Below, one piece after another: positions 1 to 55,797 of a DNA stretch of 64,000 nt. Below the pieces are notes generated by a model that ran no database searches, was not told the DNA's origin, and saw only the letters and a program-made list of their open reading frames with translations. The position numbers and the translations under genes were made by a program. The stretch lies in IMG/VR virus record IMGVR_UViG_3300022871_000010; one strand, given 5' to 3'. How positions within the stretch are numbered: the stretch's first letter is position 1; every line of letters starts with the position of its first letter. Origin of the DNA: a virus (lineage: Duplodnaviria > Heunggongvirae > Uroviricota > Caudoviricetes).

Positions 1-302
1 GTGTTCTTACAATTGATATTTCTTTTCGTAATATTCTTGATGTATATCCTTTTAATTGTTGAACTATCCAATGAACTGCTTGTGTTGGACTGGCACTAAT
101 AAACAAATGTATGTGGTCTTTATCAGTTTCCATTTTTTTAATTGTTATATTAATATTTTTTGCTTTTTCTTTTAATAATTGTTTTAATCTAATATCCACA
201 TAATCAACTAATAATTTTTTACGATATTTAACACACCAAATAATATGATAATTAATATTATAAACGGTTGTTTTTGATTTTTTCCATCTTTCTATTGCCA
301 TT
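1..302 (-). mobile_element. tnpA: IS200/IS605-family TnpA (Y1/HUH transposase). The gene runs off the window edge; the ATG is the reverse complement of CAT at 300-302.
   Basis: Minus-strand translation MAIERWKKSKTTVYNINYHIIWCVKYRKKLL...HIHLFISASPTQAVHWIVQQLKGYTSRILRKE matches the TnpA N-terminus and the HxH-hydrophobic HUH motif. Confidence 0.75.
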
Positions 303-349
303 ATGTATACACCATGTATCTAATATATAAATGTTGCGGTCTAAATTCT

Positions 350-393
350 TCCCACCACTAAAGATAGTGGGATTGCTTTAGACATTAATTTTC
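350..393. repeat. 44-46 bp element with the hairpin CCCACTAAAGATAGTGGG, in a candidate IS200/IS605 left-end subterminal position (copy 1). It overlaps the last codons of the 378..4604 gene.
   Basis: An exact copy sits in the same transcriptional orientation at about 33955-34010. An internal 6-7 bp stem-loop is visible. Confidence 0.55.
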
Positions 394-3300
394 ATGCTCA
401 TGATGTTTTTTAATTTATTTTTTAATGATAACGATTTAGTTTTAGATACTTTATTTGCTGTGGACTTTTTTAATCCTGTATTAACTACACTAGGGACTTT
501 GTTAGTCATTGGCATTTTAAACCCTTGATTAACTGCTTTAGGTGTTTGCATTGCCATAGCATTTTTCATTGTTCCCATAATGTTTGGTTTAGCTGTAGTT
601 ATTGGGTTTTTATAAGTATCTCTAAAACTATTTCCTGAAGCAATATTTTTTCCGAACAATCTATCGACTGCATTGTTTGCTTTATCATAACTTGATTGTT
701 GTGGTTTTTTTTCAAAAAAAGTTTTTGCATAATTTTGTATTTTGTTATCTACTAACCAACTATCCATATAATTTCCACCATTACCTCGACCATACTTTTT
801 AGGTAAAGATACTTTCCCATAAGGCAAAATCATCGCACTAGAAAATACTCCAGTCATTGTGTTTGTATTTGCAAGAACATTGGTATATGTGTTTGCCTGT
901 GCTTGTGTTTGTGCTTGTGCTTGTGCTTGTGCCTGAGCTTGTGCTTGAGCTTGTGCTTGTGTTTGTGCCTGAGCTTGTGTATTTGGGTTTGCTTGTGCCT
1001 GAGCTTGTGCTTGAGCTTGGGCTTTTGTTTGTTCCTGAGATTGTGTATTGAGTATTTCTTGAATTTTTGTGTCCATAGCAGTCTCTTGTGATTGTTGAGA
1101 TGCCCCTGTATTAAACATATTAATTAAATTTTTATTTGCCGCAAAAGTTTCTTTTGAAGATATATAAGAATTTGTTTTAGATTTAGCTTGTGTGCTGGTT
1201 TGAATTTGTTCTGCAATACTAGCTGTACGAACCTTTGCTGTTTCGGCTTTCATATAAGTTTTCATTTGTGTTAAAGATTTTACATTCGTTGGGCTTGCAT
1301 CAAACGTTTGTATTCCAGTAAAAGTATTTACTTTAATTTTGTTTCCTTCAATTGAAACATCTTTAACATCTGAAACTTCTATAGTATTTGAATCCGTAGA
1401 CCCACCGACAGTGTTCACAAAAGTAAATACTTTAGGTTTCATTCTCATTGTAACTTTAGAAGCTATCCCGGGAATATATTTTTCCATGGCATCACCAATC
1501 TTATCTCCACCTTTTTCAAACCAATCAGTCCAATACCCTGTTTTTTCCAAAATTTTATTTATCTTACCGCCTGCCCCAGATTTCGTCATAGCCCCACCTA
1601 TTAATCCTGATGTCACTGCACCCCATGTTGCGGCACTTACTAAACCACTAGGTGTAACTTCTTTATGAGCTCTATATCTATTAGTTGCATAAACAGCTAT
1701 ACCTTCTGGAACTCCTGCTTTTGCTATTGTGGTGGCACCAGTCCAAAAAGATTTTTCTGGGGCCCCTGCTAATACTGCTCTGGAATAAGTTCCTCTACCT
1801 ATAATTTCTGACGCTGCATTCGCAGAAAATAATGCTCCTACTTCAGCCAATCTTCCTGTCCATCTATCTTTTACAGTAGCACTTACTGCACTGTCTGCTT
1901 CTGCATCTGAATATCCTAAACTTAAATAATAATCTTTTGTACCTTTTGTAAAATCTTTACCTGATGCTGAAACTCCTGGAATCCATCCAGCTACTGGAAG
2001 GTCTCCTAGGAAACTTCTAGCAACTCCATCCCATCCGCCACCAGTTAATTTTCCTTTATCATCATATTTATCATTATAATCAAACCAACCTTTACTTTGT
2101 TCTAAATCTTCTAAAATATCTCCTGCTTGAAAACCCTTATCAAATTGTTCCGGGTTCATTCTAAAGTCTTTTTCTTTATCAGTACTTATACCATAACTTG
2201 TAACTCTTCCGCCTTCCATCCATAATGGTGCCCCGGTCGCATATTTGGCTGCGAAAGTTAATAATGCTGGTGGGGCTGTTGCTGCTACTAGTAATGCTCC
2301 TCCTGCTACAGTTGTAAATTCTGTGGCTTTACGTAAAGGTGTTTTTCCTAAACCATAAAATTCTGCAGTATCTGCGCGTTCACCATAATCTAATGTATAC
2401 GGGGTTTCTTCAACCACTGCTTGCTTTACAGTTTCTGTCCCAAGTTGTCCTATTCCTTGAACTCCTTTAGTTGCCATGCTACCAAATAATTTAACACCTC
2501 TATCTTTTATTAAATTTCCAACATTTAATAAAACCCTTGCAGCATCTCCTTTCTCACTTAAAACATTTTTTGGAACTTCTTTATCTGCAACAACAATTTT
2601 ATCTGACATTAACTGGTCCCATGCTGAAAATACTTTTTTTTCACTTTCCACAACCTTTGAGGCTGCTACAATATCTCCTTTATTTGTTATATCTGCTTCT
2701 CTAATAATTGGTAATGTATAATCAATAAAATCATCTCTAATTTTAGTTTTTTCTTTTTCTGCTTTATTATATTTATCACTTTCTTCTTTAGTAAAATCTA
2801 AATTTTCTACACTTGTACTAAAATCACTCCAAAACTTATTATCTGCTGCGTCTACTTCTTCACCTATTTTTTTATAATATTTTTCGGCCGCATCTACTCC
2901 TTCTTGAGTTCTATAGACAAATTTATTAGTTTTAGTTCCATCGTCACCTACATATGTTTGCATATAACCATCTGCGGTTTGTTGATATTCTGTTATTTTG
3001 TTTTCAACAATTTCTTTTCCTGTTTCATACCTAGACTCAGAACCCATATTTCCGATAAGCATTGCTCCTACTTTTGCAGGTGTAAGCTTTGAAATATCTA
3101 CATCCGAAGGTTTTATAATTGGAGTTGTTGTATCTGCGTTTGATTCTTCCGCTACAGCTTCTTGATATAATCTAGCCCCTTTATCATATGTTACTGGGTT
3201 ATCAATCATATCTCCAACACGTTCATCACCAATCATTGTATTTAATATTTTTTCTGAATTAATTTTTGTATCTTTATCCTGATTTTTTTTTAAATCAAGT

Positions 3301-4604
3301 TGTATATTTAGAGGGGCTTGTGCTAATTCTATACTTCTTTTATCTAATGCTTTTGCGAACCATGCATTTTCTTTATCATCCCCAAAAAATTTATTGTCTA
3401 TTGCTGCATCATGTTCTATTGCTAATGATTGTAAATCAAGTGAACTTGTTCCTGCATTAATTCTAGTTTGCCAATCTTGTTGGTGTGCATATTCTTTAGT
3501 ATCTTTAGCATCTGTTGGTTTTCCAAATATTTTATCTCTCCAGGACTCGGCTTTTTTATATGGTGATATAAGTGAATTAATAGTATTTGTTGCTTTATCT
3601 TGTCTCAACTCTGCGGCTCTTTGTTCAGAAGCTTTTATATCTATAAAGGTTCTATCATTTGGTATTCTTGGCCCAGGCATTATAGCCCCTGTTGGCGCGT
3701 CAGCTGTTGCTAAACGTTCAATAATTGTGTCAGGGATTGTTCCTGTAGGCGTTTCCACTATAAAAGACCCTGGCATAGAAGTTGTATCTTTAGGGGTTGT
3801 TGGATATAATGTTGTGTTTAAAAAATCTTTAGTTGCCACTTTAGTTTTAATTCCTGAATTTTTATTTGTTGGATAACGGTTACTTAAAAAACTTACTGGT
3901 TCTTTTTGAATATATGAACTAACAACTGAAGATGCTATAGCCTGTCTTTGTTTTTCATTAATTGCATTATTTCTATTAGCAACAATGTTCATTCTATCCT
4001 TAGCGCCTTTAGTGTCTATGATGGACATGCTGTTTATAAAGCTTTGTGAATTTTGTTGTATTCTAGGACCAACTTGTGAGGCCATTTTATTTTGCACTGC
4101 CATAGCTTGTTGTAGTTGTTTATTTGATATTATAGCTGCTTGTTGTTTAGCTTTTATTTGTGCTTCTTTAGCCCGTGCTTTATTTTGTAAAGCCACCAAC
4201 TGATTGTTTGTTACTGCATTATGAATTTCATTAGGTGTTGCAATAGTTCTTCCAGAAGAATCAACATAACCAAACTCTCTACTTGAAGTTCCTGCCACGC
4301 CCATATTTATACTATTACTCGATTGAAGATTATTAAAAAAATTCATTGCAGGGTCAAATGATTGTGGAACTGCATTATTAGAAGAAGTTTTTCCAGAAAT
4401 TTTTTTGGCTTTAGCCTGTGCAGCTGCAATCTTTCTCGCCCTAGTGGCATTGTTGTCTCCAGGGTTAATTGTAGTACTGCTACCACGATTACTTGAAGAA
4501 CCTGAACTACTAGATGAAGAACTTGAAGATGCTTTAGCCGTACTCTGTTGCTGATTACTAGTCATTAAACTTCTAAGATAATCAGCATTATTCATAGCTG
4601 TCAT
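378..4604 (-). CDS. Large (1408 aa) low-complexity, coiled-coil, Gly-rich protein. It is possibly tail tape-measure-like or structural; function uncertain.
   Basis: Long ORF with a Ser-rich N-terminus, a (QA)n/(QT)n repeat, and a Gly/Ala/Trp-rich C-terminal half (GGGWDGVARSFLGDLPVAGWIPG). No catalytic motifs were recognised. Confidence 0.35.
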   Translation of the reverse strand: MTAMNNADYLRSLMTSNQQQSTAKASSSSSSSSSGSSSNRGSSTTINPGDNNATRARKIAAAQAKAKKISGKTSSNNAVPQSFDPAMNFFNNLQSSNSINMGVAGTSSREFGYVDSSGRTIATPNEIHNAVTNNQLVALQNKARAKEAQIKAKQQAAIISNKQLQQAMAVQNKMASQVGPRIQQNSQSFINSMSIIDTKGAKDRMNIVANRNNAINEKQRQAIASSVVSSYIQKEPVSFLSNRYPTNKNSGIKTKVATKDFLNTTLYPTTPKDTTSMPGSFIVETPTGTIPDTIIERLATADAPTGAIMPGPRIPNDRTFIDIKASEQRAAELRQDKATNTINSLISPYKKAESWRDKIFGKPTDAKDTKEYAHQQDWQTRINAGTSSLDLQSLAIEHDAAIDNKFFGDDKENAWFAKALDKRSIELAQAPLNIQLDLKKNQDKDTKINSEKILNTMIGDERVGDMIDNPVTYDKGARLYQEAVAEESNADTTTPIIKPSDVDISKLTPAKVGAMLIGNMGSESRYETGKEIVENKITEYQQTADGYMQTYVGDDGTKTNKFVYRTQEGVDAAEKYYKKIGEEVDAADNKFWSDFSTSVENLDFTKEESDKYNKAEKEKTKIRDDFIDYTLPIIREADITNKGDIVAASKVVESEKKVFSAWDQLMSDKIVVADKEVPKNVLSEKGDAARVLLNVGNLIKDRGVKLFGSMATKGVQGIGQLGTETVKQAVVEETPYTLDYGERADTAEFYGLGKTPLRKATEFTTVAGGALLVAATAPPALLTFAAKYATGAPLWMEGGRVTSYGISTDKEKDFRMNPEQFDKGFQAGDILEDLEQSKGWFDYNDKYDDKGKLTGGGWDGVARSFLGDLPVAGWIPGVSASGKDFTKGTKDYYLSLGYSDAEADSAVSATVKDRWTGRLAEVGALFSANAASEIIGRGTYSRAVLAGAPEKSFWTGATTIAKAGVPEGIAVYATNRYRAHKEVTPSGLVSAATWGAVTSGLIGGAMTKSGAGGKINKILEKTGYWTDWFEKGGDKIGDAMEKYIPGIASKVTMRMKPKVFTFVNTVGGSTDSNTIEVSDVKDVSIEGNKIKVNTFTGIQTFDASPTNVKSLTQMKTYMKAETAKVRTASIAEQIQTSTQAKSKTNSYISSKETFAANKNLINMFNTGASQQSQETAMDTKIQEILNTQSQEQTKAQAQAQAQAQANPNTQAQAQTQAQAQAQAQAQAQAQAQTQAQANTYTNVLANTNTMTGVFSSAMILPYGKVSLPKKYGRGNGGNYMDSWLVDNKIQNYAKTFFEKKPQQSSYDKANNAVDRLFGKNIASGNSFRDTYKNPITTAKPNIMGTMKNAMAMQTPKAVNQGFKMPMTNKVPSVVNTGLKKSTANKVSKTKSLSLKNKLKNIMSMKINV
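893..1045. repeat. In-frame imperfect hexanucleotide tandem repeat (gcttgt/gcctga units) encoding (QA)n/(QT)n in the minus-strand ORF.
   Basis: Direct reading of the sequence. The spurious plus-strand ORFs 857..1051 and 903..1091 (LVLV / CLCL) are artefacts of this repeat. Confidence 0.9.
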
Positions 4605-4606
4605 AT

Positions 4607-6061
4607 TTACCAGAACCTCTCGGAAGTAGTTTTACCAGTATCTGGGTTTAAAAATGAATAACCTCTAACTCCATAGTTGTAACGATAATCATCTTTGTAT
4701 ATAGGTTTAGCATTTGGGTCTAACACCATTTCATAAGATGGTGAACTACCATAAGCATTAGTTGGATGGTCTTCACTCAATGTATTTTTAATGTAAGAAT
4801 CTCTATCAAAATTAACTTTTCTAAAAGTATTTCCTTTAGCTGCGCCATAATCTATTTGGCCAATGTTTTTATCACCGACAAAATATTGTTCTGATTTTAA
4901 CTGAGCCTTTTGGTTTATATCTCTAACAACAGTTCTTCCGCCATCACTATAATTACCTTGTTGGGTTCTTTTATAATTAGTTATGAAAGGTGAATAAGTC
5001 TTAACCACAGATGTTGCGTTGTTTGGAGAGTAAACACTTTCTTTTTTCAAATAAGCTTCTCTACGAGTATTCTCAAAATCACTACTGTTTCCTCTAGCAT
5101 AACGATTTTTTTCATAATTAGATTTTGCATAATCACCATACAAACTTTTTTTAAGTAACCCGCCAGTAGCAGCATATTCACTAACCTTATCTAAACGCAC
5201 AGCTCTTTTTTTATCTCTTTTAGTATCATCATCATCTGAATCTTCACGATAATAACTTTCAAAAGTTGTTCTTCCAAGAATTTTTTTTGTTATTCCAGTC
5301 TTGTAATAATCTTTTTCAGAAGATACATAAGGAGTATATTCTTTATCATATCTTTTATATCTATCATCTTTATCAGTATATTCATACAAGTTATTGTTTA
5401 TTCCTCTTTTAACTATTCTAGAAATTTTATTAGTTTCTGGGTTTATATAAACTTCTGCAGGAACATAAGTTTTATTAGTTATTTCTTTTTTAGTCTCTCC
5501 GCCATCTCTTTTATAATAATGCTTTTTAGCTAAATACTCCTGCGTTGGAGCTTTATACACATTACCTGTTTTAATAAAATTATCAGGAATATCTAACTTC
5601 CATCCCTTATTAATTAATTTAGTAGATGTGGGGGCTAAAGAAAAAGTTCCTTTTTGATAATCACTACGTACTGTCAAATTATCGCCTTTCTTTGAAAACC
5701 CAGAAATAAGTTCTGAACCTTTAAGTTTTGTTAAGAAAGTATTTTGTGCTACTGCTATTTGTTTTTTCCCTGCTATACCTGTTAAAGTATCTGGCATGAA
5801 AGACTTCAGACTAATATTTTTTCCTGAATATAGTGAATAATTTAAATTGTCAAACGGAGTTGCTTTGGATAACGTGTTTGCACTATGTTGCATTCTAGCC
5901 ATTTTTGAACTGAAAGAACCAGATTTTGTTGGAGTGTTAGTTTTATAACTTGGAAGCCTAGAAGACGATTTTGAAGCCGAACTACTCTTTCCTCGTTTAC
6001 CTTGATTTTGCATCATTTTGAATACCTCATTAAACATAGCTACTATTGGGCGGCTACTCAT
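4607..6061 (-). CDS. Hypothetical Y/K/D/N-rich protein (484 aa). Its stop abuts the start of the 1408-aa gene, so the two are probably co-transcribed.
   Basis: Long ORF with a 3-nt gap to the downstream gene. Confidence 0.6.
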   Translation of the reverse strand: MSSRPIVAMFNEVFKMMQNQGKRGKSSSASKSSSRLPSYKTNTPTKSGSFSSKMARMQHSANTLSKATPFDNLNYSLYSGKNISLKSFMPDTLTGIAGKKQIAVAQNTFLTKLKGSELISGFSKKGDNLTVRSDYQKGTFSLAPTSTKLINKGWKLDIPDNFIKTGNVYKAPTQEYLAKKHYYKRDGGETKKEITNKTYVPAEVYINPETNKISRIVKRGINNNLYEYTDKDDRYKRYDKEYTPYVSSEKDYYKTGITKKILGRTTFESYYREDSDDDDTKRDKKRAVRLDKVSEYAATGGLLKKSLYGDYAKSNYEKNRYARGNSSDFENTRREAYLKKESVYSPNNATSVVKTYSPFITNYKRTQQGNYSDGGRTVVRDINQKAQLKSEQYFVGDKNIGQIDYGAAKGNTFRKVNFDRDSYIKNTLSEDHPTNAYGSSPSYEMVLDPNAKPIYKDDYRYNYGVRGYSFLNPDTGKTTSERFW

Positions 6062-8386: not shown

Positions 8387-10687
8387 TTATACATCACCCT
8401 GTTCTTCCCTGATTTTCATAATTAATTGTTTTGCATCAGTCATGATTTGTTGCACTTGTTTTTTTGATATAGGAATGTCATACTGGTTCTTTACGTGAAG
8501 AGTAATTCTATTCATAGTCAGTGTCGTGTCATTAACCATAATATCTTGTAATGCAAGTAACAACAAAGACTTGTAAATATCTGTTGAAGAAACTTCACTA
8601 CGAACGACATCTTCATCATACACATTTCTTTCCCTAACCTTCAAGTATTTTGTGTACAACCAATTTGGAACTTTAGGAAATTTTATTATTTTCCAAAAAT
8701 TTGGATGTTTTTTTAGTTTCTTTTCAATCTCAGTTAATGAAGTGAACTCAGTATATGAGCCAACGTTTTTAAAATCTTTAAGTCTCCATGGGTCGTTACT
8801 TGGATTTTTATCTTTAACATAAATTGCGCCAAGACCTCTACCAAATAAATCTATCCAGTAATTTACGAAAGAATTATGAACCAATAGATTATTTGCAACA
8901 TAATTTTTGTTTTTGTTTACATTTAATATATCATAAACATCCACATTTGGTTCTTTATTTATTTGTATTATTGATTCAAACTTATTTGATATTGTAAAAA
9001 TTTTATGATTATGTGTTAATTCATGTAATTGTTTCCATCCATCATTTGTAAAAAAACTATGATTTTTTGTGGCCTTAATTTTATTATTTGTTGTAATAAT
9101 TTCAAAGACTATATCATTTTTTGTTTTTACACAAGCTTCAGCAAATTGATATTCATACTTTTTATTTTTTATATCATAGCTTAATACTTCAATGTTTGAT
9201 TTATTTTCTAAATGTTTTATTTTTTGTAAACCCTGTCTAGTATGTATTAAAGTGTCCCCATGTAAACATTCTAAATAATTTTTTTCTATCTTAACAATTT
9301 TTAATGGAAAACATAAAATAAATAATAAATGTTTTGTTCTAACTTCCGCTAACCGTTTTTTTAATTCTTTAGACTCTTTTTTTGCCCAATCCGCAGAACT
9401 ATTATGTACAACAAAATTATTAGCAATATAATTATTATTATCTTCAACATTAATTATATCATAAACATCTATTTTTTCTTTTTTTGTTATGCTTTTAATT
9501 TTTATAAATTTATTATTAAAACATACTAACATATTTTTATTAATATGTTGCAATTCTTTCCATCCATTATTTGTTAAAAATTTATGTTCTTTAGTGGCTC
9601 TTATAATGTTTTCATTTTCGATTTCTAATTCATATACATAATCTGTTTTTGTTTTAATTATTGTTTTGGCTTTTTTAAATTCTGTTTGTTTATTTTTTAT
9701 ATTATATGATAATACTTTAATATTTTTTTTATTTACTAAAGTGCTTATTTTTTTAGGACCTTCTAAGGTTTGAATAATTGTGTTTCCACAAATACACGCA
9801 AACCTTACCGCTTCATCTGCGATTATTGGTTCGAACGCATTTAATTTATTAATTTTATCCATAACGTCTTTATTGTTATAGGCTAAATGTCTATTGGGGT
9901 CAAATCTTATTCCAATTAATTTACACCATTCTCTAGCTAACATTATTGAGGCAGACGATTTTCCAGTATTTGAAACAACAAACCCGTTAGCTATAAAATT
10001 ATGATTATCTCTAACATTAACTACATCATAAACATTTTGTTTTCCTAAATGTTTTATTGATTTTATTATATTATTTATTATTTTTTTATTATTATCAACT
10101 GTCACAATTTTTTTAGTTTTATCATTTATTTTCAAATCTTTTAATTCTTTATATGTTCCGTCCATTAATAAAAACGGATGGTCTGCAGTGGCCTTTATAA
10201 TTTGACCAGTTATTAATTCTAATTCATATACATCATCATACTTAGCAAACTCTACACCGTCAGAATCTTTTATTTCTAATTTTTTAGTATCCTTATTAAA
10301 TGAATAAACTTTTATTGGACCTTTATTTATTAGTTCTTTTAATGGAACTCCAACCGGATATTTTGTTAAATCTCTAGGCATCATCAATAAAGAATCATCT
10401 GTCAAACATCCTTTCTCAGAAGTCATTAGTACCATACTATCGTAGTTGGCTAAATTTCTATAAAGTAAATGTTTTGCAAACATTCTAAATATGTTGAAAC
10501 CTCTGTTGTTTGGTTTTTCTCCTTCAACATATTTTTTACCTTCTTCATTGTGCATTTCTTGAATTATAAATAGAATATCATTTAACCCAAGCTTGACACT
10601 ACTTGGATTGTCTGTCTTAAAAGATTCTTTAATTATGTTTTCTACTAATCTCCTAGTACCAAAACCTAACTCTTTTGCGTCAGCCAT
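8387..10687 (-). CDS. AAA+/P-loop ATPase interrupted by three mini-inteins. The extein is about 355 aa and is Orc1/Cdc6-like or packaging-ATPase-like.
   Basis: The spliced extein reads SEKG|TGKSSASIML (Walker A), then about 50 aa later EPIIADEAVRFA (Walker B). Three inserts each start with Cys and end in (H/S)N followed by Ser or Thr. Confidence 0.7.
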   Translation of the reverse strand: MADAKELGFGTRRLVENIIKESFKTDNPSSVKLGLNDILFIIQEMHNEEGKKYVEGEKPNNRGFNIFRMFAKHLLYRNLANYDSMVLMTSEKGCLTDDSLLMMPRDLTKYPVGVPLKELINKGPIKVYSFNKDTKKLEIKDSDGVEFAKYDDVYELELITGQIIKATADHPFLLMDGTYKELKDLKINDKTKKIVTVDNNKKIINNIIKSIKHLGKQNVYDVVNVRDNHNFIANGFVVSNTGKSSASIMLAREWCKLIGIRFDPNRHLAYNNKDVMDKINKLNAFEPIIADEAVRFACICGNTIIQTLEGPKKISTLVNKKNIKVLSYNIKNKQTEFKKAKTIIKTKTDYVYELEIENENIIRATKEHKFLTNNGWKELQHINKNMLVCFNNKFIKIKSITKKEKIDVYDIINVEDNNNYIANNFVVHNSSADWAKKESKELKKRLAEVRTKHLLFILCFPLKIVKIEKNYLECLHGDTLIHTRQGLQKIKHLENKSNIEVLSYDIKNKKYEYQFAEACVKTKNDIVFEIITTNNKIKATKNHSFFTNDGWKQLHELTHNHKIFTISNKFESIIQINKEPNVDVYDILNVNKNKNYVANNLLVHNSFVNYWIDLFGRGLGAIYVKDKNPSNDPWRLKDFKNVGSYTEFTSLTEIEKKLKKHPNFWKIIKFPKVPNWLYTKYLKVRERNVYDEDVVRSEVSSTDIYKSLLLLALQDIMVNDTTLTMNRITLHVKNQYDIPISKKQVQQIMTDAKQLIMKIREEQGDV
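8873..9268 (-). mobile_element. Mini-intein 3 (aa 474-605, 132 aa).
   Basis: Starts CLHGDTLIHT. Ends KNYVANNLLVHN|S. It is paralogous to intein 2: both have EVLSY / KATK(E/N)H / VYDI(I/L)NV. Confidence 0.8.
9401..9796 (-). mobile_element. Mini-intein 2 (aa 298-429, 132 aa), inserted just after Walker B.
   Basis: Starts CICGNTIIQT. Ends NNYIANNFVVHN|S. Confidence 0.8.
9968..10408 (-). mobile_element. Mini-intein 1 (aa 94-240, 147 aa), inserted inside the P-loop between G and TGKS.
   Basis: Starts CLTDDSLLMM. Contains the block-B-like TADHPFLL. Ends DNHNFIANGFVVSN|T. Confidence 0.8.
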
Positions 10688-12462: not shown

Positions 12463-12586
12463 TTTAAATGAACTGTTTGTAGTTTGTTTAAACCTGAAGT
12501 TTAAATGAACTGTTTGTAGTTTGTTTAAACCTGAAGTTTAAATGAACTGTTTGTAGTTTGTTTAAACCTGAAGTTTAAATGAACTC
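12463..12586. repeat. Perfect tandem direct repeat: a 37-bp unit (tttaaatgaactgtttgtagtttgtttaaacctgaag) in about 3.3 copies, in the upstream region of the helicase gene.
   Basis: Units begin at 12463, 12500, 12537 and 12574 and are identical. Confidence 0.9.
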
Positions 12587-12677
12587 TTTAATTTTTATTC
12601 TTACATACCATAGTTTACTTAATTCATCAATGTGGTCTACAGCTTTACTATTAACTAATATATCTCTAATTCTTGCT

Positions 12678-13238
12678 TCAATTTCTCCTACTTGAACTTT
12701 TAGTATTTTTTTGTTTATTTCTATTTTTATTCACCCTCTTTAGTTTTTGTTGTTGTGGTTGTGGTCTTGATATACCTAAAGCTCTTTCTAGTCTATCGTT
12801 ATATACTCCGCCTCTAGATTGATTATTGTTGTTATTGTTTTGATTGTTGTTGTTATTGTTTTGATTGTTATTTGAATTATTGTTTGATACTCCTAACATT
12901 CTATTAATTTTATCTGAAATACTATTCCCGCCATTTTGACCACCATTAGACATTCCACCAAAACTAAAGGCTTTAGCTAACTTTTCTAGTTTGTCGGTTT
13001 TGTCTTGACCTGTCATCTTCTTAATTTCTTGTTCTTTAATATGTTTTACCATTTCAGGTCTTAATTCTAATAATGCTTGTTCTCTTGCTTCCGTCATTAT
13101 CTTATTTTTGAATTCTTTTTCTTTACGTTTTGTTTCTAACCTATTTTTTATTTTTGTTATAAGTTTTGATATTAATCCAGGCTTCTTAACTTCAACCTTT
13201 TCTTCAATTCCATATCTTTCTAATTCTTCCATATTCAT
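12678..13238 (-). CDS. Hypothetical Lys-rich coiled-coil protein with a poly-Asn/Gln low-complexity tract (186 aa).
   Basis: ORF with NNNSNNNQNNNNNNQNNNNNNQ, encoded by imperfect nucleotide repeats at about 12790-12880. Confidence 0.5.
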   Translation of the reverse strand: MNMEELERYGIEEKVEVKKPGLISKLITKIKNRLETKRKEKEFKNKIMTEAREQALLELRPEMVKHIKEQEIKKMTGQDKTDKLEKLAKAFSFGGMSNGGQNGGNSISDKINRMLGVSNNNSNNNQNNNNNNQNNNNNNQSRGGVYNDRLERALGISRPQPQQQKLKRVNKNRNKQKNTKSSSRRN

Positions 13239-13454
13239 TTTATTTCACCTATCATAATTGTTTATATTAATATAATTAATAATGATATATATAAATGTTT
13301 TGTTTTACCATTATCCCTTATCATATTCAAAGTCACCTGACACTGGTTACAGTGACACTCATAATATATTCTTAAAGTCTATATATATAAAATTGTTATA
13401 TATATACACTCTCTGAAGGCTTTTAGAAATGCACAATATTTATTAGAAAAAACA

Positions 13455-13997
13455 TTTGTCAGTGACTGTATATATTTATTACTTTAATATACAATTATAT
13501 TATTATATCATATATACAGTCACTGCGTCAGTATACACATGTGTATACTCGAACGCGTTTTAGGCTTTTTTGAACTGTAAATGGCTGTACTTTTTTATAC
13601 CTAAAAGCCATACTAAAACTTCTTATAATAACAACACAAGGTCTGTATGTATATATATGGTGTATATGGGTTATACTTCTATCTCTATATGTATTATATT
13701 AACTACTCAGAGAGTATATATATTTTTTAATTTTATATTTTCATTATTTATGATATTTTCTTTGGCTTTTTCTTGGCTTTTTTTGGCTAAAATGGCTTTT
13801 TTTGGCTTTCCTTTATAAAAGGATTGGCTATATTGTGGCTTTTTTATAATATTTTTTAGCCATTATGGCTAAAATTTTAGCCAAAATCACTGAAAACCTG
13901 AAAAATAATTAGTGACTGTATATACAGTCACTATTTGTAAATTCAATAAATCACAATAAATTATGTTAAAAGTTCAGTGACTATATATATAGTCACT
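13455..13997. promoter_or_regulatory. Palindrome cluster in the divergent strand-switch intergenic region. It is a candidate operator array and/or replication origin.
   Basis: Inverted repeat CAGTGACTGTATATA (13460-13474) with TATATACAGTCACTG (13511-13525). 20-bp perfect palindrome AGTATACACATGTGTATACT (13530-13549). 22-bp perfect palindromes AGTGACTGTATATACAGTCACT (13911-13932) and AGTGACTATATATATAGTCACT (13976-13997). Confidence 0.6.
13762..13886. repeat. Array of TTGGCT direct repeats ending in the palindromes TAGCCATTATGGCTA and GGCTAAAATTTTAGCC. This is a candidate protein-binding iteron field.
   Basis: At least six copies of TTGGCTTTTT-like units, then a perfect palindrome at 13857-13871 and a 16-bp one at 13867-13882. 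Confidence 0.55.
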
Positions 13998-14152
13998 ATC
14001 TTGTCACATTTTTTCAGTGACACTTTTCCAATATTATGATAGGGTTGTGCAAAATAAAAACATTTATATATATCAAAGAAAATAATAATATTCATATAGA
14101 AAAAAAGGAATTAATTTTTAACAATTCTTTTTTGTAAATAGGTGATATATTT

Positions 14153-14539: not shown

Positions 14540-16738
14540 ATGACTCCGACTAATTTTCAGATATTAACTCCCAGTCAAATAAATATATTATCTTCACATG
14601 ATTTAATTAATAAACAAATAGATAAAGTTTTTAATAGAATCTTTAATGCTTCATCAAAAAAATTAGCCAGTATATTATTAACAGGTGATTATATTGATAT
14701 TAACATTTTATCATTCAAACCTAATTATGAAGCATTCATTAAACGAAATTCTGGATTATTTAATTCAATGGAATCAAATGGTACAACAATTTATTTATTA
14801 AATAATGATGTAGCTAAAAATTTACATACAGAATTATTAAAAACTTTACAAAAGATAGGTACAGCCATTGTAGATGCAGATGAAGATGATTCTGAAAAAT
14901 GGACTAAAAAACAAATTAATGGTCAAGAGTTTTATGAAGTTAATGAAGCAACAACTTTTCAAGATATAAGACAAATTCTTGGTAAGGAAGGAAAAAATAT
15001 AAATTTTCGTTATCCATTTAGAAAAGCTGATATGAAAGCAGCAGTGTTTGAGAATAAGAATACTCTACAAATGGTTAATGTACACATTAATAATGATGGT
15101 GAATATTTTGGTTACCCAGTAACTTATACATATATATGTCCTGAGTGTAGAGAAATCTTTACATGCCCGGAATATGAAACGAGTTCTAAGCAGGCTAATA
15201 AGATGGCTTGCACTGGAGAAGTAACTACTATAGATAGTCATAATGTAGAAAAATTAAAGAGATGTAATAATAGTTTAATTCCGGATAATAATAGGACTGA
15301 AACTAAAGACTCATTTATTTATGATGTATCATTCATTAATGAAGATGGTAATAATCAAAAGGCTGAAGCTATATCATTCATTCAATTACCCAAAGGAAAC
15401 ATCCGTGTAGTATTACAAAAGATACCTAGGGCTTTCGGAATACAATTAGTTCACATTGTAGATTATGAAGAAATAGAAAAGAAATCTTTAGAACTACCTC
15501 CAAGAAAATCTAAACATTATATGTTTGATTTAATAAAAGCTATAGATGATTATATTTTAAAAATAACCAATTATAAACATTATGGGTTTTTATCAATGAA
15601 GATGTCTATGCTATTACAATTTTTTGCTAGATATAATAGGGATATAAAAAATAATTATAACATGGCATTATCCGGGACTATGTCTTCAGGTAAATCTCAG
15701 TTCTCTAGATATTGGGGACTAACTTTATATTCACAAAGTTGTTGGAGCAGCAATGCAACAAGTATTAGTATACCAAAACTTCGTGGAACAATGGAATCAT
15801 TTCATTTGTTTGGTAAAGATTATCGTTATCAATATAAAGGTTTATTTGGAGAAAAAGATTTAATCATAATTGATGAAGTTAAAGAAGCCCCTGATGTAAA
15901 AAACAATTTGAAGCAGTATGCTTTAGAACCAACTTATGAATATTCCAAACAAGGAAGTAATAATCAAACTTATGAAAGAACCGCTCAATTAATAATTACG
16001 CAAAACATCGATACAAAACATTTGGATAGATATGCTAAGGCTGTACAGAAAATTTATATGTCCGACTCTTTAGTGGTTGATGATGAAAGCGTTGGGCCTA
16101 AACCAGCCTGGGGGTTTTCTGAAGATTTAACTCTGCCATTGTATGCTTATGCAAATCCTTATTTACAGTATGCAGTTCAAAAGGCCAGAGATGAATATGA
16201 AAGAAGTCAAATCAATTGGATTGATGGTTCTGAACTTGCACTGAAACAAAGGTTTTTCTTTTATTTTTATTTAAGTTCTGAAGAAAGCAATCATGAATTA
16301 AAAACAGTAATCCAGGAAAACAGTGTTAACAAAATTATATCAAACAACACAAACATTGTTAAATTAATGAATTGTGATAAGTTAGTTAAGTATGTTAAAG
16401 ACCAGGAACACTTGTTTGAAAATTATAATGATATAAAATATTTTAACAAAGTTGATGATATTTTAAAAACTTATAAGAAACGAAATGACGCAAGGACCAA
16501 AGAAATGGCTTACATGATAATTAAAATGTTAAGAATGATTGATGGGCGTAAAGAATGTAATGATACAGATTTAGAAATTTTTACTTACATTATAGAAAAC
16601 ATAGATAACAAAATAGAAATTATTAACACAAATAATTTTGTCATTAAAGGAGCGCACTCAGTGGTTTTAAAAGTAGATGAAAGAAACGCTGAAGATGACG
16701 AATGGGAAAACAATAACAATAAAGGAAACTTTTTTTAG
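14540..16738 (+). CDS. AAA+ replicative-helicase candidate (MCM-like or SF3/D5-like) with an N-terminal Cys-cluster zinc module (732 aa).
   Basis: Zn module ICPECREIFTCPEY...MACTGE...KRCNN. Walker A LSGTMSSGKSQF (MCM-type GKSQ). Walker B LFGEKDLIIIDEVKEA about 60 aa later. Sensor-1 / motif-C-like TAQLIITQN. Confidence 0.5.
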   Translation: MTPTNFQILTPSQINILSSHDLINKQIDKVFNRIFNASSKKLASILLTGDYIDINILSFKPNYEAFIKRNSGLFNSMESNGTTIYLLNNDVAKNLHTELLKTLQKIGTAIVDADEDDSEKWTKKQINGQEFYEVNEATTFQDIRQILGKEGKNINFRYPFRKADMKAAVFENKNTLQMVNVHINNDGEYFGYPVTYTYICPECREIFTCPEYETSSKQANKMACTGEVTTIDSHNVEKLKRCNNSLIPDNNRTETKDSFIYDVSFINEDGNNQKAEAISFIQLPKGNIRVVLQKIPRAFGIQLVHIVDYEEIEKKSLELPPRKSKHYMFDLIKAIDDYILKITNYKHYGFLSMKMSMLLQFFARYNRDIKNNYNMALSGTMSSGKSQFSRYWGLTLYSQSCWSSNATSISIPKLRGTMESFHLFGKDYRYQYKGLFGEKDLIIIDEVKEAPDVKNNLKQYALEPTYEYSKQGSNNQTYERTAQLIITQNIDTKHLDRYAKAVQKIYMSDSLVVDDESVGPKPAWGFSEDLTLPLYAYANPYLQYAVQKARDEYERSQINWIDGSELALKQRFFFYFYLSSEESNHELKTVIQENSVNKIISNNTNIVKLMNCDKLVKYVKDQEHLFENYNDIKYFNKVDDILKTYKKRNDARTKEMAYMIIKMLRMIDGRKECNDTDLEIFTYIIENIDNKIEIINTNNFVIKGAHSVVLKVDERNAEDDEWENNNNKGNFF

Positions 16739-20501: not shown

Positions 20502-23500
20502 ATGTTAGATATAAAAAAATTAATCAAAAATAAAACCAACAGGGTAAACTTTGGTGGTCCTCTTTCTAAAAATTTAAACAAATTTAATCTAAAGGCTTTC
20601 GGTGGAAAGAAAGATTTAGATTTTGATGGAATACTTAACAAGTTTGATTGTAAACCAAAAAACACTATGAGACAAGATTATATTCCTTTCAAGCTGGCTA
20701 GTGCTTCTAAACTACCCCAAGTGCCTAGACATAAACAACATTTTCAAACAAGGTTTGAAAAGAACAAGGCACCTAAAAGAAAAATTTCTAAAACAAAATA
20801 TACACCCCCTGTTTCATTAATTAAAGAATTTTCTATGAATCCAACAGTTAAACGTGGGTCTTTAAATATTGGGCGTTGTGGGGATGCAGCTTCATGCATT
20901 GTTACAGACGCAGTAAATAGTGGAGTTCCAATGTCGGACATTGAAGTGTTTGGTGTAAGAGCACCTAATCTTAATAAAGGCGAAGATATTTATTCTAATC
21001 ATATGATAACTAAAGTTCAAGATAAATATTATGACCCAACCAAAACACAGTTCGGATATAAAGATAATGAACTAATAACTGATTCTATAGATTCAAGATA
21101 TAATACTCCAGTAATACAACCGACAAGTGCATATGTTAAAAAAGGGGCTTCATTAAAAAAACAAGATGAATGGGCTTATATGACAGGAGCACAAAAAGAT
21201 ATAGAACGGGCTGTATATATAGATACTGATGGGGATAGAGTCCCGGATGATTATGATTGTCAAATTAATAATACCATGCGCCAAGATTTCACACCATTCA
21301 AATGGGATGTAAATAAAGCTTCAAAACTTTCTGCAGCTAAAAGATTTGGTGGAAAGAACTTGGCAAAATTACAAAAGATAGGTTCCGGTAGAGATAGAAA
21401 TGTTTATGCTATAGATAAAGATAAAGTATTAAAGGTTGCTAAAAATCCTGGTGGGCTAACTCAAAATACTTCTGAATCAGATTTAGATTGGTTAACAGGC
21501 CAAATCAAACATTATGAAACTGGATTGGATTATGTAGTTATGGAACGAGCACAACCTCCAGGTAAAGCTACGGCTAAAATGATGAGACATTTGAAGAAAG
21601 CAAGAAGCGATACTAATATGATGCAGTCAGTTCATTCACAAAGAGCAGACTTTTTTAATTCTCCACACTTCGAAAAATCAGGTTTAGACGCTTCAGATTT
21701 TTCAAGCCATGATGTAAACCCAATGGAATTTACGGCAAGAAAACAGTGGGGAGAAAAAGATGGTCAGCCAGTACTTGTTGATGGAGGAGCATTAATGGGT
21801 GGTGATGATTTATCAAATCATAGAATTAAAGATTTTAAACAAAACGCTTGGCAACTTAATGAATGGCAAGATACTCAAAATCAACGTAAAGAATTTAAAC
21901 ATAAAGGTAATGTAAAAACCCACTATCCTAAAAGTAATCCAGTAGAAAACTTATCAAACTTCCCATTAAACAATGGTGCTTCTTTAGCTAAACAAAATGA
22001 ATGGAAAGAAATGTCTGGGGAACAAAGAGATGCTCAAAGACAAACCAGCCATGACACAGATGGAGATAGAGTCCCGGATGAATATGATTGTCAACCAGAA
22101 AATACAATGCATCAAGATACTAATATATATTTAAGTAAACGTAAAGATAAGACTAAACATTCTATGTATACATATAGTCCTACAAAAAATCAGATAAAAA
22201 AAAATACTAAAAACATATTTATTGGGTCAGAATATAAGAATGTTGATTTTAACAAACAACAAAATATAAATCAGTTGTCAGCAATATTAGGGCATGAAGA
22301 ACAACACAGTATTTTGGATGTAGAACATAATAGTGATACTTCCGCAAAGTTAGATAATATAGCCATTAAAACACTTTTTGTTGATTATGACGATGAAACA
22401 TTATTGTTAAACACATCTGTGCAACCAAAAGAAATTGTTGGTTATGCAAATAAAAATAAACATTGCGATGATTCAAAAAATGCTTTTAAATTTATCTTTA
22501 ATAAAGGTGCGTCATTACAAAAACAAAACGAGTGGAAAGAAATGTCTGGAGAACAACGAAACATTGTTAGACAATTCAAAGAAGACATAGACGGGGATAG
22601 AGTCCCGGATGATTATGATTGTCAACCAGAAAATACAATGCATCAAGATTTCAGTATATCCCCAGACCAGTATGATTTTGATAAAAAAGAATTTAAGTTT
22701 GATAATAAACGAAAAGTAGTTATGATGCCGGTTGAAGAATTATATCATAAACGTGGTAAATATAATTTAGGTGGAACAACCACGATGCAGGATGATTATA
22801 CCAAACGTAAAACGGTGGGCAAGAATATCACAAAAGCCGCCGGGAGACCTGCAACATATGATGAAGTAACAAAACATATGATTAAAAATCGTAATGAAGA
22901 TTTAAAACAACAAGGATATAAACCTTCACCACACAAATTAAATAAAGATGATAGTGTAACAATTAAGTATCGAAGGTCTCCACAAAAATATAAGTATGAC
23001 ATGGGAATAATAATGAGCCCAACAAATACTGATTCTGAACGGAGTGGAAGTCTTGGGGATTTAAAAATAGCCCAAGGAGCAAGTCGTAAAGAAGCAGGAC
23101 AGGCAGAAGTAATGTTTCACGCTAACAGTATGAGAGATGCAGTGATGAAAGATTCTGCAGAAGTCCCAATGATAACAGTTCATGGTTCAGATTTTAACCC
23201 AGGAGCAACTATAGGGGAAGGGAGACATAGAATCATTGCCGCTAAAGCCGCAGGATTAACAGAGGTCCCAGTGTTTATTGAACCAAATAATAGATTACCT
23301 GAAGGGGCTTTAGATAAGTATAGAGAATTATCTACTGATGAAATACAACAATTTTCTTCAGACCATAGAGTTCCAGGAAAAACCGTTAACACTAATAAAC
23401 CTAAAAACATAGAATATAAAGAATATGATAAGAGTTCTAAATTTAAACCAACTAAAGATTTTGATGTAGGCTATGATGAGTATGTAGATAAACGAACCCC

Positions 23501-23570: not shown

Positions 23571-23586
23571 TTAATGAGGAATAAAA

Positions 23587-27149: not shown

Positions 27150-27222
27150 GGGCTCGTAGCATAACGGCTAATGCAGTCGCCTTGCAAGCGAAAGACTTTG
27201 GGTTCAAATCCCAACGGGTCCA
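27150..27222 (+). tRNA. tRNA-Ala (anticodon TGC).
   Basis: Cloverleaf read by hand: acceptor GGGCTCG/CGGGTCC with the G3:U70 Ala identity pair, D-arm GCAT/ATGC, anticodon loop CTTGCAA, T-arm TTGGG-TTCAAAT-CCCAA. No encoded CCA. Confidence 0.8.
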
Positions 27223-27509
27223 TTCATACCAGAAACAAAGACAGAACAATATAGCTAACATACGATGTTGTAAGGAAAACCAGGTACTCTGGCAACCTAT
27301 ATCTGTAGTCGCAACAGACTATCCTGCCAGGGGTAAATGAAATACAAGTAACGATGAGATTAGTAAATAATGAAAACTTTAAATGAACCTTTTTGGAATG
27401 TTTAATGTTGAGTAATTGTTTAAAATTGTTTGAGTCACTCAACTGGTTTCAAGGTTTATTGCTCTTTGCTGGATAAAGGTAGTTTCCGCCTAAAAGGGAA
27501 CATTCAATT

Positions 27510-27598: not shown

Positions 27599-27599
27599 T

Positions 27600-33954: not shown

Positions 33955-34010
33955 AAGCAGCATATGATGAAAATTAATGTCTAAAGCAATCCCACTATCT
34001 TTAGTGGTGG
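33955..34010. repeat. Copy 2 of the 46-bp IS-end-like element (atgaaaattaatgtctaaagcaatcccactatctttagtggtggga).
   Basis: Exact match to the reverse complement of about 350-398, including the codons MKINV*. Confidence 0.6.
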
Positions 34011-34106
34011 GAGTATCAAATATCTAAGAAGAAATTAGAATTAATAGAAGACAAATATAAAGAGCTTTACACTTCAGGATTTTTTAGACGAATTACAAGG
34101 GTTATA

Positions 34107-34193
34107 ATGAAAAATGGATGGTACAAATACAAAAAGCGTGTACCCTTTAAGTTATATTCTAATAACTTATCAATGGTTAATACCACAGAATAA
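34107..34193 (+). pseudogene. Possible decayed tnpA-like remnant downstream of element copy 2.
   Basis: MKNGWYKYKKRVPFKLYSNN... is only weakly like the TnpA N-terminus (W.K.K...Y). It is short, and the inference rests on position. Confidence 0.2.
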
Positions 34194-52206: not shown

Positions 52207-52221
52207 ATTTTAAATTTTAAT

Positions 52222-52806: not shown

Positions 52807-52807
52807 A

Positions 52808-53041: not shown

Positions 53042-53043
53042 AA

Positions 53044-53408: not shown

Positions 53409-53409
53409 A

Positions 53410-53601: not shown

Positions 53602-53605
53602 TTAT

Positions 53606-54995: not shown

Positions 54996-54998
54996 AAA

Positions 54999-55217: not shown

Positions 55218-55218
55218 A

Positions 55219-55792: not shown

Positions 55793-55797
55793 TTTTT

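What the first reader, a model, noticed from the sequence alone, without database searches (positions are those of the whole stretch)
1..400. IS200/IS605 TnpA at the window edge; its 46-bp hairpin end is duplicated 33.6 kb away next to a decayed tnpA-like stub and supplies the last codons of the 1408-aa gene
The minus-strand ORF from 302 down to 1 encodes a typical Y1/HUH transposase N-terminus (MAIERWKKSKTTVYNINYHIIWCVKYRKK...HIHLFIS).

The sequence atgaaaattaatgtctaaagcaatcccactatctttagtggtggga lies just upstream of it. It contains the hairpin CCCACT-AAAGA-TAGTGGG. An identical copy in the same orientation occurs at 33955-34010. That copy is followed about 100 bp later by a short ORF (MKNGWYKYKKRVPF...) only faintly like TnpA.

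In locus 1 the element encodes the C-terminal ...MKINV-stop of the large gene. So either the IS inserted into the gene's 3' end and now provides its terminus, or the gene end plus terminator hairpin was copied.

The companion gene (tnpB / OMEGA nuclease) would lie outside the window.
Basis: partly seen in the sequence, partly recalled or inferred. Interest (0 to 1): 0.6.

Follow-up and report, generated by a model that had tools for sequence, protein, structure and literature searches.

The report
IS608-like insertion sequence plus 48-bp remnant
The window edge holds the left end of an active, 1738-bp IS200/IS605 insertion sequence that landed in the last codons of a large gene, and the second "copy" 33.6 kb away is a 48-bp fused-ends remnant of the same element; both are ordinary, already described kinds of mobile DNA.

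Summary
The 46-mer is exact at 350-395 (-) and 33967-34012 (+), on opposite strands. The edge ORF is a Y1/HUH TnpA.

Extending the contig (L001) shows a complete 1738-bp element: tnpA (133 aa), tnpB (400 aa) and a right end carrying the same hairpin. Comparison of 24 independent insertion sites and one empty site (L064) fixes the ends. The element follows TGAA and ends in TCAA, with no target duplication. Its geometry and DNA guide tetranucleotides match IS608. Five full copies differ by at most 3 nt.

At site 1 the IS cut off the last 16 codons of the large gene. An uninterrupted homologue ends ...MSMKSPVKSKSVRIPAYGGK. The IS left end supplies only I-N-V-stop.

Site 2 (33972-34019) is a 48-bp "terminal-only" element made of the left-end 5' part, one hairpin and the right-end tail. 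It replaces 154 bp of a 110-aa gene.

The "tnpA-like stub" is the 3' remnant of that gene, not TnpA. The shared-terminator alternative is refuted.

This is a new member of a known kind. Equivalent 52-bp remnants were described in Haloquadratum in 2011. Interest is low to moderate.

The parts
1..390 (-). Left 390 bp of a 1738-bp IS200/IS605 (IS608-like) insertion sequence. The remaining 1348 bp (rest of tnpA, tnpB, right end) lie beyond the window's left edge.
   Evidence: The window's 390 bp are identical to the first 390 bp of the full copy in L001. The full element holds tnpA at L001 14304-14705, tnpB at 14707-15909 and the RE hairpin at 15923-15945, and ends at 15952.
391..394 (-). TGAA: target / left cleavage site (C_L), predicted TnpB TAM. 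It is not part of the element.
   Evidence: TGAA lies 17-18 nt 5' of TCCCAC at 24 of 24 distinct sites. The preceding base is A in 16, T in 7 and C in 1. It is retained once in the empty site L064.
2..301 (-). tnpA, codons 1-100 of 133 (Y1/HUH transposase). The HUH motif (HIH in DKDHIHLF) is inside the window. The catalytic Tyr (Y126, aligned to IS608 Y127) is outside it.
   Evidence: Pfam Y1_Tnp 1.4e-26. Full protein: NCBIfam transpos_IS200 4.6e-38. Best solved relative is IS608 TnpA 2a6m, 2.3e-33.
324..335 (-). AACATTTATATA, a BRE/TATA-like promoter motif inside the IS, 23-34 nt upstream of the tnpA ATG.
   Evidence: There are 5 exact copies in the window against 0.14 expected. The other four precede gene clusters of the host element in the right orientation. 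The motif is also present in the related IS subfamilies.
350..372 (-). LE subterminal palindrome core TCCCACTATCTTTAGTGGTGGGA (IS positions +19 to +41).
   Evidence: It is invariant in all copies, because the collection scans searched for exactly this sequence.
372..375 (-). Putative left DNA guide G_L = CAAT (IS +16 to +19). By the IS608 pairing rule it specifies TGAA.
   Evidence: Read directly from the sequence, using the rule and numbering in PMC5934647 and PMC3201880. The RE carries GAAT with TCAA, as IS608 does.
339..383 (-). Outer LE stem GTCTAAA (383-377) / TTTAGAC (345-339). It encloses the guide and the palindrome. Its 5' half holds the GTC-TAA that ends the 1408-aa ORF.
   Evidence: 3 of 7 pairs show compensatory changes among 10 subfamily left ends. 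98.6% of cells are paired, and 0 of 500 shuffles reach the observed covariation score. DNA fold z = -3.3.
378..4604 (-). 1408-aa gene truncated by the IS. Codons I-N-V-stop (389-378) are IS-derived. The native last 16 codons (SPGKSKSVRIPAYGGK) now lie beyond the IS right end, outside the window.
   Evidence: Homologue P0002 ends ...MMSMKSPVKSKSVRIPAYGGK. Empty site L064.
33968..33971 (+). TGAA target flanking the 48-bp element.
33972..34019 (+). 48-bp terminal-only element (PATE-like). It consists of the LE 5' part (AATTAATGTCTAAAGCAA), one hairpin with the LE-type loop base T, and the RE tail GTATCAA.
   Evidence: Three-way alignment with LE and RE. The same architecture occurs at 9 distinct sites.
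34020..34193 (+). 3' remnant (57 codons plus stop) of a 110-aa gene. 154 bp of the gene's 5' part are missing.
   Evidence: P0001 is 100% identical over this part. The intact gene is seen in L062 and L063. Alignment.

Best explanation
What is shown:
- Window 1-390 (-) is the left end of a complete, recently active 1738-bp IS200/IS605 element of the IS608 type. It has the order LE-tnpA-tnpB-RE.
- The element sits in an AT-rich, virus- or plasmid-like genome from lake metagenomes.
- It inserts 3' of TGAA and ends in TCAA, with no terminal inverted repeats and no target duplication.
- At site 1 it inserted at ATGAA, 16 codons before the end of a large gene. The left end then supplies I-N-V-stop.
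- Site 2 is a 48-bp terminal-only derivative of the same element, made of the LE 5' part, one hairpin and the RE tail. It replaces the 154 bp between two TGATGAA sites of a 110-aa gene.

What is inferred:
- TnpA probably moves the element as single-stranded DNA ("peel and paste").
- The 4 nt 5' of each hairpin foot probably act as DNA guides. CAAT would pair with the left site TGAA and GAAT with the right site TCAA, at the same 19-nt and 10-nt spacings as in IS608.
- The 48-bp element most likely arose from a full copy by deletion between the two 25-bp direct-repeat hairpins.
- The 154-bp deletion could have arisen through the 8-bp microhomology TGATGAAA, or through recombination between two nearby copies.
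- TnpB with a right-end-derived omega RNA would cut empty TGAA + ATCACCAGG... sites and so promote retention or homing of the IS.
For: - TnpA: Pfam 1.4e-26, NCBIfam 4.6e-38, and IS608 TnpA 2.3e-33 with the HUH motif and Y127 aligned.
- TnpB: NCBIfam guided_TnpB 1.4e-42.
- A full element with both ends is present in L001.
- Five full copies of 1738 bp at different sites differ by at most 3 nt.
- 24 of 24 distinct sites are flanked by TGAA, and the right ends all finish in TCAA with unrelated flanks.
- The empty site L064 reads ...CAATGAA|ATCACCAGTAAAAAG..., and its downstream gene is 99% identical.
- Homologue P0002 ends with the predicted native tail.
- Site 2 is an LE/RE fusion.
- The intact 110-aa gene is seen in L062 and L063, and the alignment shows 154 bp replaced by 48 bp.
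- The IS608 rule and spacings come from PMC3201880 and PMC5934647.
- Conserved stems with compensatory changes lie in the tnpB 3' end, consistent with an omega RNA scaffold.
- Repeat-mediated core deletion to 52-bp terminal-only elements has been described before (PMC3119063).
- Both loop variants (T and A) occur among the 48-bp elements, as expected for crossovers on either side of the loop base.
Against: - No experiment or read-level data were available.
- The hairpin is invariant in all retrieved copies, because they were retrieved by that sequence. Its pairing register and the guide assignment therefore rest on analogy with IS608.
- Rfam has no match for the putative omega RNA.
- The canonical RuvC-II glutamate of TnpB is glycine in this clade. 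That is a described "rearranged" type, but its activity is unproven here.
- The origin of the 48-bp element (deletion in situ or insertion as such) and the mechanism of the 154-bp deletion cannot be decided from the data.
- No site was found in both the full and the 48-bp state.
Confidence: 0.9

Rival explanations
1. The 46-mer is a shared intrinsic terminator, or a duplicated gene end plus terminator, and is not a transposon end.
For: The repeat contains a stop codon followed by a hairpin. It closes an ORF at both window sites and in L006 and L022.
Against: - The hairpin is not followed by a T-run (AGAATTTAGACC and GTATCAAATATC).
- The same sequence occurs at 24 sites with unrelated flanks, always after TGAA.
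- It is physically linked to tnpA-tnpB and to a matching right end.
- An empty site exists.
Confidence: 0.02
2. Site 2 is a second, decayed IS copy whose tnpA survives as the short ORF MKNGWYKYKK...
For: A left-end sequence is followed about 95 bp later by a small ORF in the same orientation.
Against: - The ORF is 100% identical to the C-terminus of an intact 110-aa non-transposase protein.
- The sequence right after the hairpin is the RE tail GTATCAA, followed directly by that gene.
- No tnpA or tnpB sequence remains.
Confidence: 0.02
3. The 48-bp single-hairpin element is itself a mobile mini-PATE. It arrived at site 2 by TnpA action in trans, rather than forming there by deletion of a full copy.
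For: - There are 9 distinct 48-bp (or near) insertions against 15 left ends of full-type copies.
- Two subfamilies are seen only as short elements.
- The same idea was raised for the 52-bp ISHwa23 remnants in Haloquadratum (PMC3119063).
Against: - The element keeps only the left-type guide CAAT. By the IS608 rule this mismatches the right cleavage site TCAA (C opposite C), so right-end cleavage should be poor (inference).
- Both loop variants occur, which fits independent deletions.
- Site 2 is not a clean insertion, because it comes with a 154-bp deletion.
Confidence: 0.25
4. The 154-bp deletion at site 2 was made by TnpA itself. The left-end guide would capture the second TGAA as a target while the right end is cleaved, joining TCAA to the DNA after TGAA#2. 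Under this rival, replication slippage or recombination played no part.
For: Both deletion end points lie exactly 3' of TGATGAA. The chemistry equals the normal integration step (PMC3201880). In two other pairs of contigs the IS keeps the same right flank but has a different left flank.
Against: An 8-bp direct repeat (TGATGAAA) at the end points is enough for slippage. Recombination between two neighbouring copies gives the same product. There is no direct evidence either way.
Confidence: 0.15

Closest known systems
IS608 (ISHp608) of Helicobacter pylori, IS200/IS605 family
   Same: - Gene order is tnpA (Y1/HUH) then tnpB.
- TnpA aligns over its full length at E = 2.3e-33, with the HUH motif and catalytic Tyr aligned.
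- Both have subterminal hairpins, no inverted repeats and no target duplication.
- The right end finishes in TCAA with guide GAAT, identical to IS608.
- The left cleavage site lies 19 nt 5' of the hairpin foot and the right cleavage lies 10 nt 3' of it, as in IS608 (and the sequence).
   Different: - The target is TGAA (guide CAAT) instead of TTAC (guide AAAG).
- The LE and RE hairpins are nearly identical 25-bp direct repeats.
- The LE has an additional covarying outer stem.
- TnpB is only about 25% identical to solved TnpBs and has Gly at the RuvC-II Glu position.
- tnpA is preceded by a BRE/TATA-like motif.
Terminal-only PATEs of Haloquadratum walsbyi (52-bp remnants of ISHwa23 and HqIRS46; Dyall-Smith et al. 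2011, PMC3119063)
   Same: A roughly 1.5-1.7-kb IS605-type element is reduced to about 50 bp by deletion between the two near-terminal palindromes, which are direct repeats. The product keeps fused termini and one palindrome, and is found at several sites.
   Different: - The parent here carries both tnpA and tnpB, whereas ISHwa23 is tnpB-only.
- The length is 48 bp.
- The host replicon is an AT-rich virus- or plasmid-like element.
- The copy in the window is combined with a 154-bp deletion of the target gene.
IS200/IS605 elements annotated in viral genomes (Sulfolobus monocaudavirus SMV1, Hyperthermophilic Archaeal Virus 2 ISDka2, ATV2, Campylobacter and Staphylococcus phages)
   Same: tnpA-tnpB or tnpB-only IS copies reside in virus genomes. 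The TnpB here matches those of SMV1 (3e-26) and HAV2 (1e-24).
   Different: Identity is at most 28%. The host element here has no detectable DNA or PolB similarity to any deposited phage or archaeal virus.
ISDra2 / Geobacillus IS605 TnpB-omega RNA homing systems (Karvelis 2021, PMC8612924; Meers 2023, PMC10055086)
   Same: The tnpB 3' end and the RE contain conserved, covarying stems. The TAM would equal the TnpA target, and the guide would equal the DNA flanking the RE.
   Different: No RNA data are available. There is no Rfam match. The RuvC-II site is of the rearranged type.

Membership tests
IS200/IS605 family (IS608-like, tnpA+tnpB) | Y1 HUH transposase (TnpA) with the HUH motif and catalytic tyrosine | tested here: met
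   Pfam PF01797 1.4e-26 for the 100 codons in the window. NCBIfam NF033573 (equivalog) scores 130 bits against a cut-off of 55 for the full 133 aa. The alignment to IS608 TnpA shows DKDHIH and Y126 opposite Y127.
IS200/IS605 family (IS608-like, tnpA+tnpB) | Subterminal hairpins at both ends, with no terminal inverted repeats | tested here: met
   LE and RE carry the same 23-25-nt palindrome in direct orientation, 1690 bp apart.
IS200/IS605 family (IS608-like, tnpA+tnpB) | Insertion 3' of a specific tetra- or pentanucleotide, without target-site duplication | tested here: met
   TGAA is found at 24 of 24 sites. The empty site L064 holds a single TGAA followed directly by the right flank.
IS200/IS605 family (IS608-like, tnpA+tnpB) | Cleavage sites specified by guide tetranucleotides 5' of each hairpin foot | tested here: inconclusive
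   CAAT with TGAA and GAAT with TCAA fit the IS608 pairing rule and its 19-nt and 10-nt spacings (and the sequence). However, neither guides nor sites vary among the retrieved copies, so there is no covariation test, and no biochemistry was done.
IS200/IS605 family (IS608-like, tnpA+tnpB) | Accessory RNA-guided nuclease TnpB, with an omega RNA overlapping its 3' end and the RE | tested here: inconclusive
   For the protein the feature is met: NF040570 scores 146 bits against a cut-off of 100, and the zinc-finger CxxC pairs and the RuvC-I and RuvC-III Asp residues are present. The RuvC-II Glu is Gly, a described rearranged type (PMC10691335). The RNA rests only on conserved stems with 8 compensatory pairs. 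There is no Rfam hit and no expression data.
IS200/IS605 family (IS608-like, tnpA+tnpB) | Demonstrated single-strand transposition | not testable with these tools
   The only evidence is indirect: at least 5 near-identical copies at different sites.
PATE (palindrome-associated transposable element), terminal-only type | Non-coding element with IS605-type termini, a near-terminal palindrome and no target duplication, present at several sites | tested here: met
   The 48 bp are the LE 5' part, the hairpin and the RE tail. The architecture occurs at 9 distinct sites, all after TGAA and ending in TCAA.
PATE (palindrome-associated transposable element), terminal-only type | Mobilisation in trans by TnpA | not testable with these tools
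   The guide of the 48-bp element is of the left type only, so right-end cleavage is doubtful by the IS608 rule. This is an inference.
Intrinsic (hairpin plus T-run) transcription terminator | G+C-rich stem immediately followed by a run of T | tested here: not met
   The sequences after the hairpin are AGAATTTAGACC (site 1) and GTATCAAATATC (site 2).

The most novel reading that the evidence does not exclude
Two readings remain open, and the probability given is for at least one being true.

First, the 48-bp single-hairpin elements could themselves be mobilised by TnpA in trans. That would make them among the smallest transposable units known.

Second, the IS could spread through this population of uncultivated, probably archaeal, virus-like genomes as a TnpB/omega RNA gene drive. 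It would cut IS-free TGAA + ATCACCAGG... genomes during co-infection. TnpA or IS recombination would also generate the adjacent deletions and mosaic junctions seen at site 2 and between L001 and L022.
Probability: 0.2. Interest if true: 0.55.

Novelty: new member of a known kind. Interest (0 to 1): 0.3.

Why it matters
Mostly it matters for annotation:
- The 1408-aa ORF is a truncated allele whose last three codons and stop come from an IS.
- The small ORF at 34107-34193 is a gene fragment.
- Several metagenome contigs of this element break at the site-1 IS copy.

It also gives a clean natural example that the IS608 DNA-guide rule predicts a new target (CAAT predicts TGAA).

It shows an apparently active tnpA-tnpB element, with a RuvC-II-rearranged TnpB, living in a poorly known AT-rich virus-like genome. 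At least one related contig comes from an Antarctic lake.

The predicted TAM (TGAA) and guide boundary could be used to test this TnpB clade experimentally.

Tried and rejected
- megablast of window 1-6000 against deposited phages found nothing. tblastn of the PolB N-terminus against phages also found nothing. The host element stays unclassified.
- PHROGs gave almost no hits for 10 proteins.
- Rfam had no family for the IS region.
- The search for homologous proteins with the last 147 residues plus the predicted tail returned nothing, not even the window's own protein. The question was answered instead by the exhaustive representative search.
- The exact-sequence look-up of the reconstructed intact 1421-aa allele was negative. 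The same look-up also denied the window's own 1408-aa protein, which look-up of encoding contigs had found on 12 contigs. The result is therefore uninformative.
- All contigs shown for the gene next to site 2 have the same spacing as the window, that is, the 48-bp allele. The intact allele was reached only through the protein search.
- The genome scan placed the IS in a MAG labelled "uncultured Rhodobacter sp.". These contigs have 25-32% G+C and carry the same flanks as the virus-like contigs. I treat this as mis-binning, not host evidence.
- I considered an NCLDV origin, because of PolB inteins, a clamp loader and low G+C. I rejected it because many genes overlap by 4 bp, Shine-Dalgarno-like GGTG/GAGG motifs precede the starts, and a prokaryotic Y1 TnpA is present.
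Full report
OBSERVATION

The 46-mer occurs exactly twice, at 350-395 on the minus strand and 33967-34012 on the plus strand. None is expected in shuffles. The two copies therefore form an inverted repeat in window coordinates. Each has the same orientation as the genes around it.

The edge ORF starts at 301, not 302. Its 100 codons hit Pfam Y1_Tnp at 1.4e-26. The 1408-aa ORF (378-4604, minus strand) ends ...NIMSMKINV-stop inside the repeat.

THE ELEMENT BEYOND THE WINDOW

An exact-protein look-up of the 1408-aa product returned a contig that continues past the window edge (L001, JGI Ga0222694_1000018). Directly after the large gene it carries, in order:
- the 46-mer;
- tnpA (133 aa), which scores 4.6e-38 against NCBIfam IS200/IS605 transposase, with IS608 TnpA as the closest solved structure (2.3e-33, HUH and Tyr127 aligned);
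- tnpB (400 aa), which scores 1.4e-42 against NCBIfam guided_TnpB;
- a right end with almost the same hairpin (AATCCCACTAaCTTTAGTGGTGGGA), followed by GTATCAA.

Four other contigs with the same gene stop within 12-123 bp after it. This is what a repeated element does to assemblies.

DEFINING THE ENDS

I scanned the viral, genome and metagenome collections for the hairpin and collated the flanks.
- There are 24 distinct left-side sites, and all have TGAA 17-18 nt 5' of TCCCAC.
- The base before TGAA is A in 16 sites, T in 7 and C in 1.
- All right ends finish in TCAA (GT[A/G]TCAA), followed by unrelated DNA.
- The main element is 1738 bp. Five full copies at different sites differ by at most 3 nt. 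This argues for recent transposition.

A true empty site was found in L064. It reads ...GATGTCAATGAA|ATCACCAGTAAAAAGTAAATCCGTCAGAATACCAGCATATGGCGGAAAATAA. Its downstream gene is 99% identical to the one right of the IS in L001. TGAA is present once, so there is no target duplication.

MECHANISM BY ANALOGY WITH IS608

In IS608 the left site TTAC lies 19 nt 5' of the hairpin foot, and the right site TCAA lies 10 nt 3' of it. Each site is read by a guide tetranucleotide 5' of the foot (G_L AAAG, G_R GAAT), with A16:T-3 and A17:T-4 pairs (PMC3201880, PMC5934647).

Here, fold the hairpin as CCACTA/TAGTGG with an extrahelical T and a C-G foot pair. The result is then:
- The left guide is CAAT at +16 to +19, with TGAA 19 nt 5' of the foot.
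- The right guide is GAAT, with TCAA cleaved 10 nt 3' of the foot.
- The rule gives C16:G-3, A17:T-4 and T19:A-1, which specifies TGAA.
- The right end uses the very same GAAT/TCAA pair as IS608.

This is a reading of the sequence, not a test, because the guides do not vary among the retrieved copies.

The left end also has an outer stem (GTCTAAA/TTTAGAC) that covaries among subfamilies. Three of 7 pairs show compensatory changes, and 0 of 500 shuffles reach the observed score.

Between this stem and tnpA lies AACATTTATATA. The same 12-mer precedes four gene clusters of the host element, giving 5 copies against 0.14 expected. It looks like an archaeal BRE/TATA box.

The last 110 nt of tnpB contain two conserved stems with compensatory changes. 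This fits an omega RNA scaffold, although Rfam has no match.

SITE 1: WHO SUPPLIES THE GENE END

Joining the flanks predicts an ancestral end ...NIMSMK|SPGKSKSVRIPAYGGK-stop. An exhaustive search with the last 500 residues found a 1365-aa homologue (P0002, 54% identity) that ends ...KKMMSMKSPVKSKSVRIPAYGGK. Its contig is the empty site above.

So the IS inserted 16 codons before the stop. The element contributes the third base of the Lys codon, then I-N-V and TAA. The truncated allele sits on 12 contigs from several samples, so it is tolerated.

SITE 2

A three-way alignment shows that 33972-34019 is the left-end 5' part, one hairpin with the left-type loop base, and the right-end tail GTATCAA. 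It contains no IS interior.

Removing the element restores an ORF across the junction. A protein search with that restored sequence found a 110-aa protein that is 100% identical over its last 57 residues. Its contigs (L062, L063) show the intact gene...ATGATGAA|AGCAAT...(154 bp)...AGTGATGAA|ATATCTAAG....

In the window the 154 bp between the two TGATGAA sites are replaced by the 48-bp element.

Possible routes to this state are:
- a full or short copy inserted at the second TGAA, followed by a deletion between the 8-bp repeats TGATGAAA;
- recombination between two neighbouring copies;
- an aberrant TnpA reaction.

These cannot be separated with the data.

The 48-bp form itself is best explained by deletion between the two 25-bp hairpin repeats of a full copy. 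Both loop variants (T and A) occur among the nine such elements found. Exactly this process, giving 52-bp terminal-only PATEs, was described in Haloquadratum walsbyi (PMC3119063).

COMPARISON AND NOVELTY

IS200/IS605 elements are already annotated in archaeal viruses (SMV1, HAV2, ATV2) and in many phages. TnpB-guided homing is established (PMC8612924, PMC10055086). RuvC-II Glu-to-Gly TnpB clades are described (PMC10691335).

The host replicon is unusual. It has about 29% G+C, PolB with inteins, a clamp loader and helicases, and almost no Pfam or PHROG hits. It shows no similarity to deposited phages. One related contig comes from Ace Lake, Antarctica. That is context, not part of the finding.

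VERDICT

This is a new member of a known kind, and the interest score is 0.3.

Noticed in passing
window 49559-50318: Three arrays of 14-bp tandem repeats (consensus AACCTATATGTTGT, about 10, 7 and 8 copies). Each array is preceded by a conserved ACTGACTTAATTGTCTCACATCTATATTCTCT leader, inside a gene-poor, very AT-rich stretch. They look like iterons or an origin.
   Followed up: no
window 12463-12589 and 13200-14150: Three near-perfect 37-bp tandem repeats lie in the divergent intergenic region where gene orientation and GC skew change sign. If this is a replication origin, both IS-derived elements have their active (top) strand on the G-rich strand of their arm. That is the bias known for IS608-type elements.
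   Followed up: partly
L001 14707-15909 (tnpB, outside the window): The canonical RuvC-II glutamate is glycine (IGDVKNIR aligned to MEDLTNIR of 8j12). The substitution is conserved in 9 relatives at 55-100% identity. This matches the "RuvC-II rearranged" TnpB clades of Altae-Tran et al. 2023.
   Followed up: partly
L001 vs L022; L011 vs L027: The same IS with the same right flank has a completely different left flank in another contig. In L022 a 109-aa ORF ends ...QTKNEN-stop in the left end, read in another frame. The IS marks rearrangement or mosaic breakpoints between related genomes.
   Followed up: partly
window 8387-10687 and 39221-43021: Inteins are present in a helicase-like 766-aa protein and in a family-B DNA polymerase (Hint plus Intein_splicing hits).
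   Followed up: no
window 52213-58789: Four copies of an 86-151-nt upstream region contain AAAAACGAAAGGTTTATATATAAGCTATGCTTT. They lie in front of paralogous genes, including two 299-aa ORFs at 53753 and 55885.
   Followed up: no
window 20610-23871: Five 69-nt repeats encode a D-x-D-G-D-R-V-P-D-x-Y-D-C-Q-type motif within the 1022-aa and 289-aa ORFs. No Pfam family was hit.
   Followed up: no
window 27150-27222 and 27509-27599: There is a tRNA-Ala(TGC) gene, plus a 91-nt tRNA-like call with an undetermined anticodon that may contain an intron.
   Followed up: no
L007-L010 (CAYXXQ01..., MAG labelled uncultured Rhodobacter sp.): Contigs of 25-32% G+C carry this IS and the same flanks as the virus-like contigs. 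L007 is the IS alone, at about twice the coverage of the others. They are very probably mis-binned.
   Followed up: partly
L050 2678-3699: Two 48-bp elements lie in direct orientation 999 bp apart, one with loop base T and one with loop base A. The segment between them was not examined.
   Followed up: no
whole window: The tools disagree about the 1408-aa protein. The look-up of encoding contigs finds it on 12 contigs. The exact cluster look-up says it is not in the collection. The word-indexed homology search with its C-terminus returned nothing.
   Followed up: no
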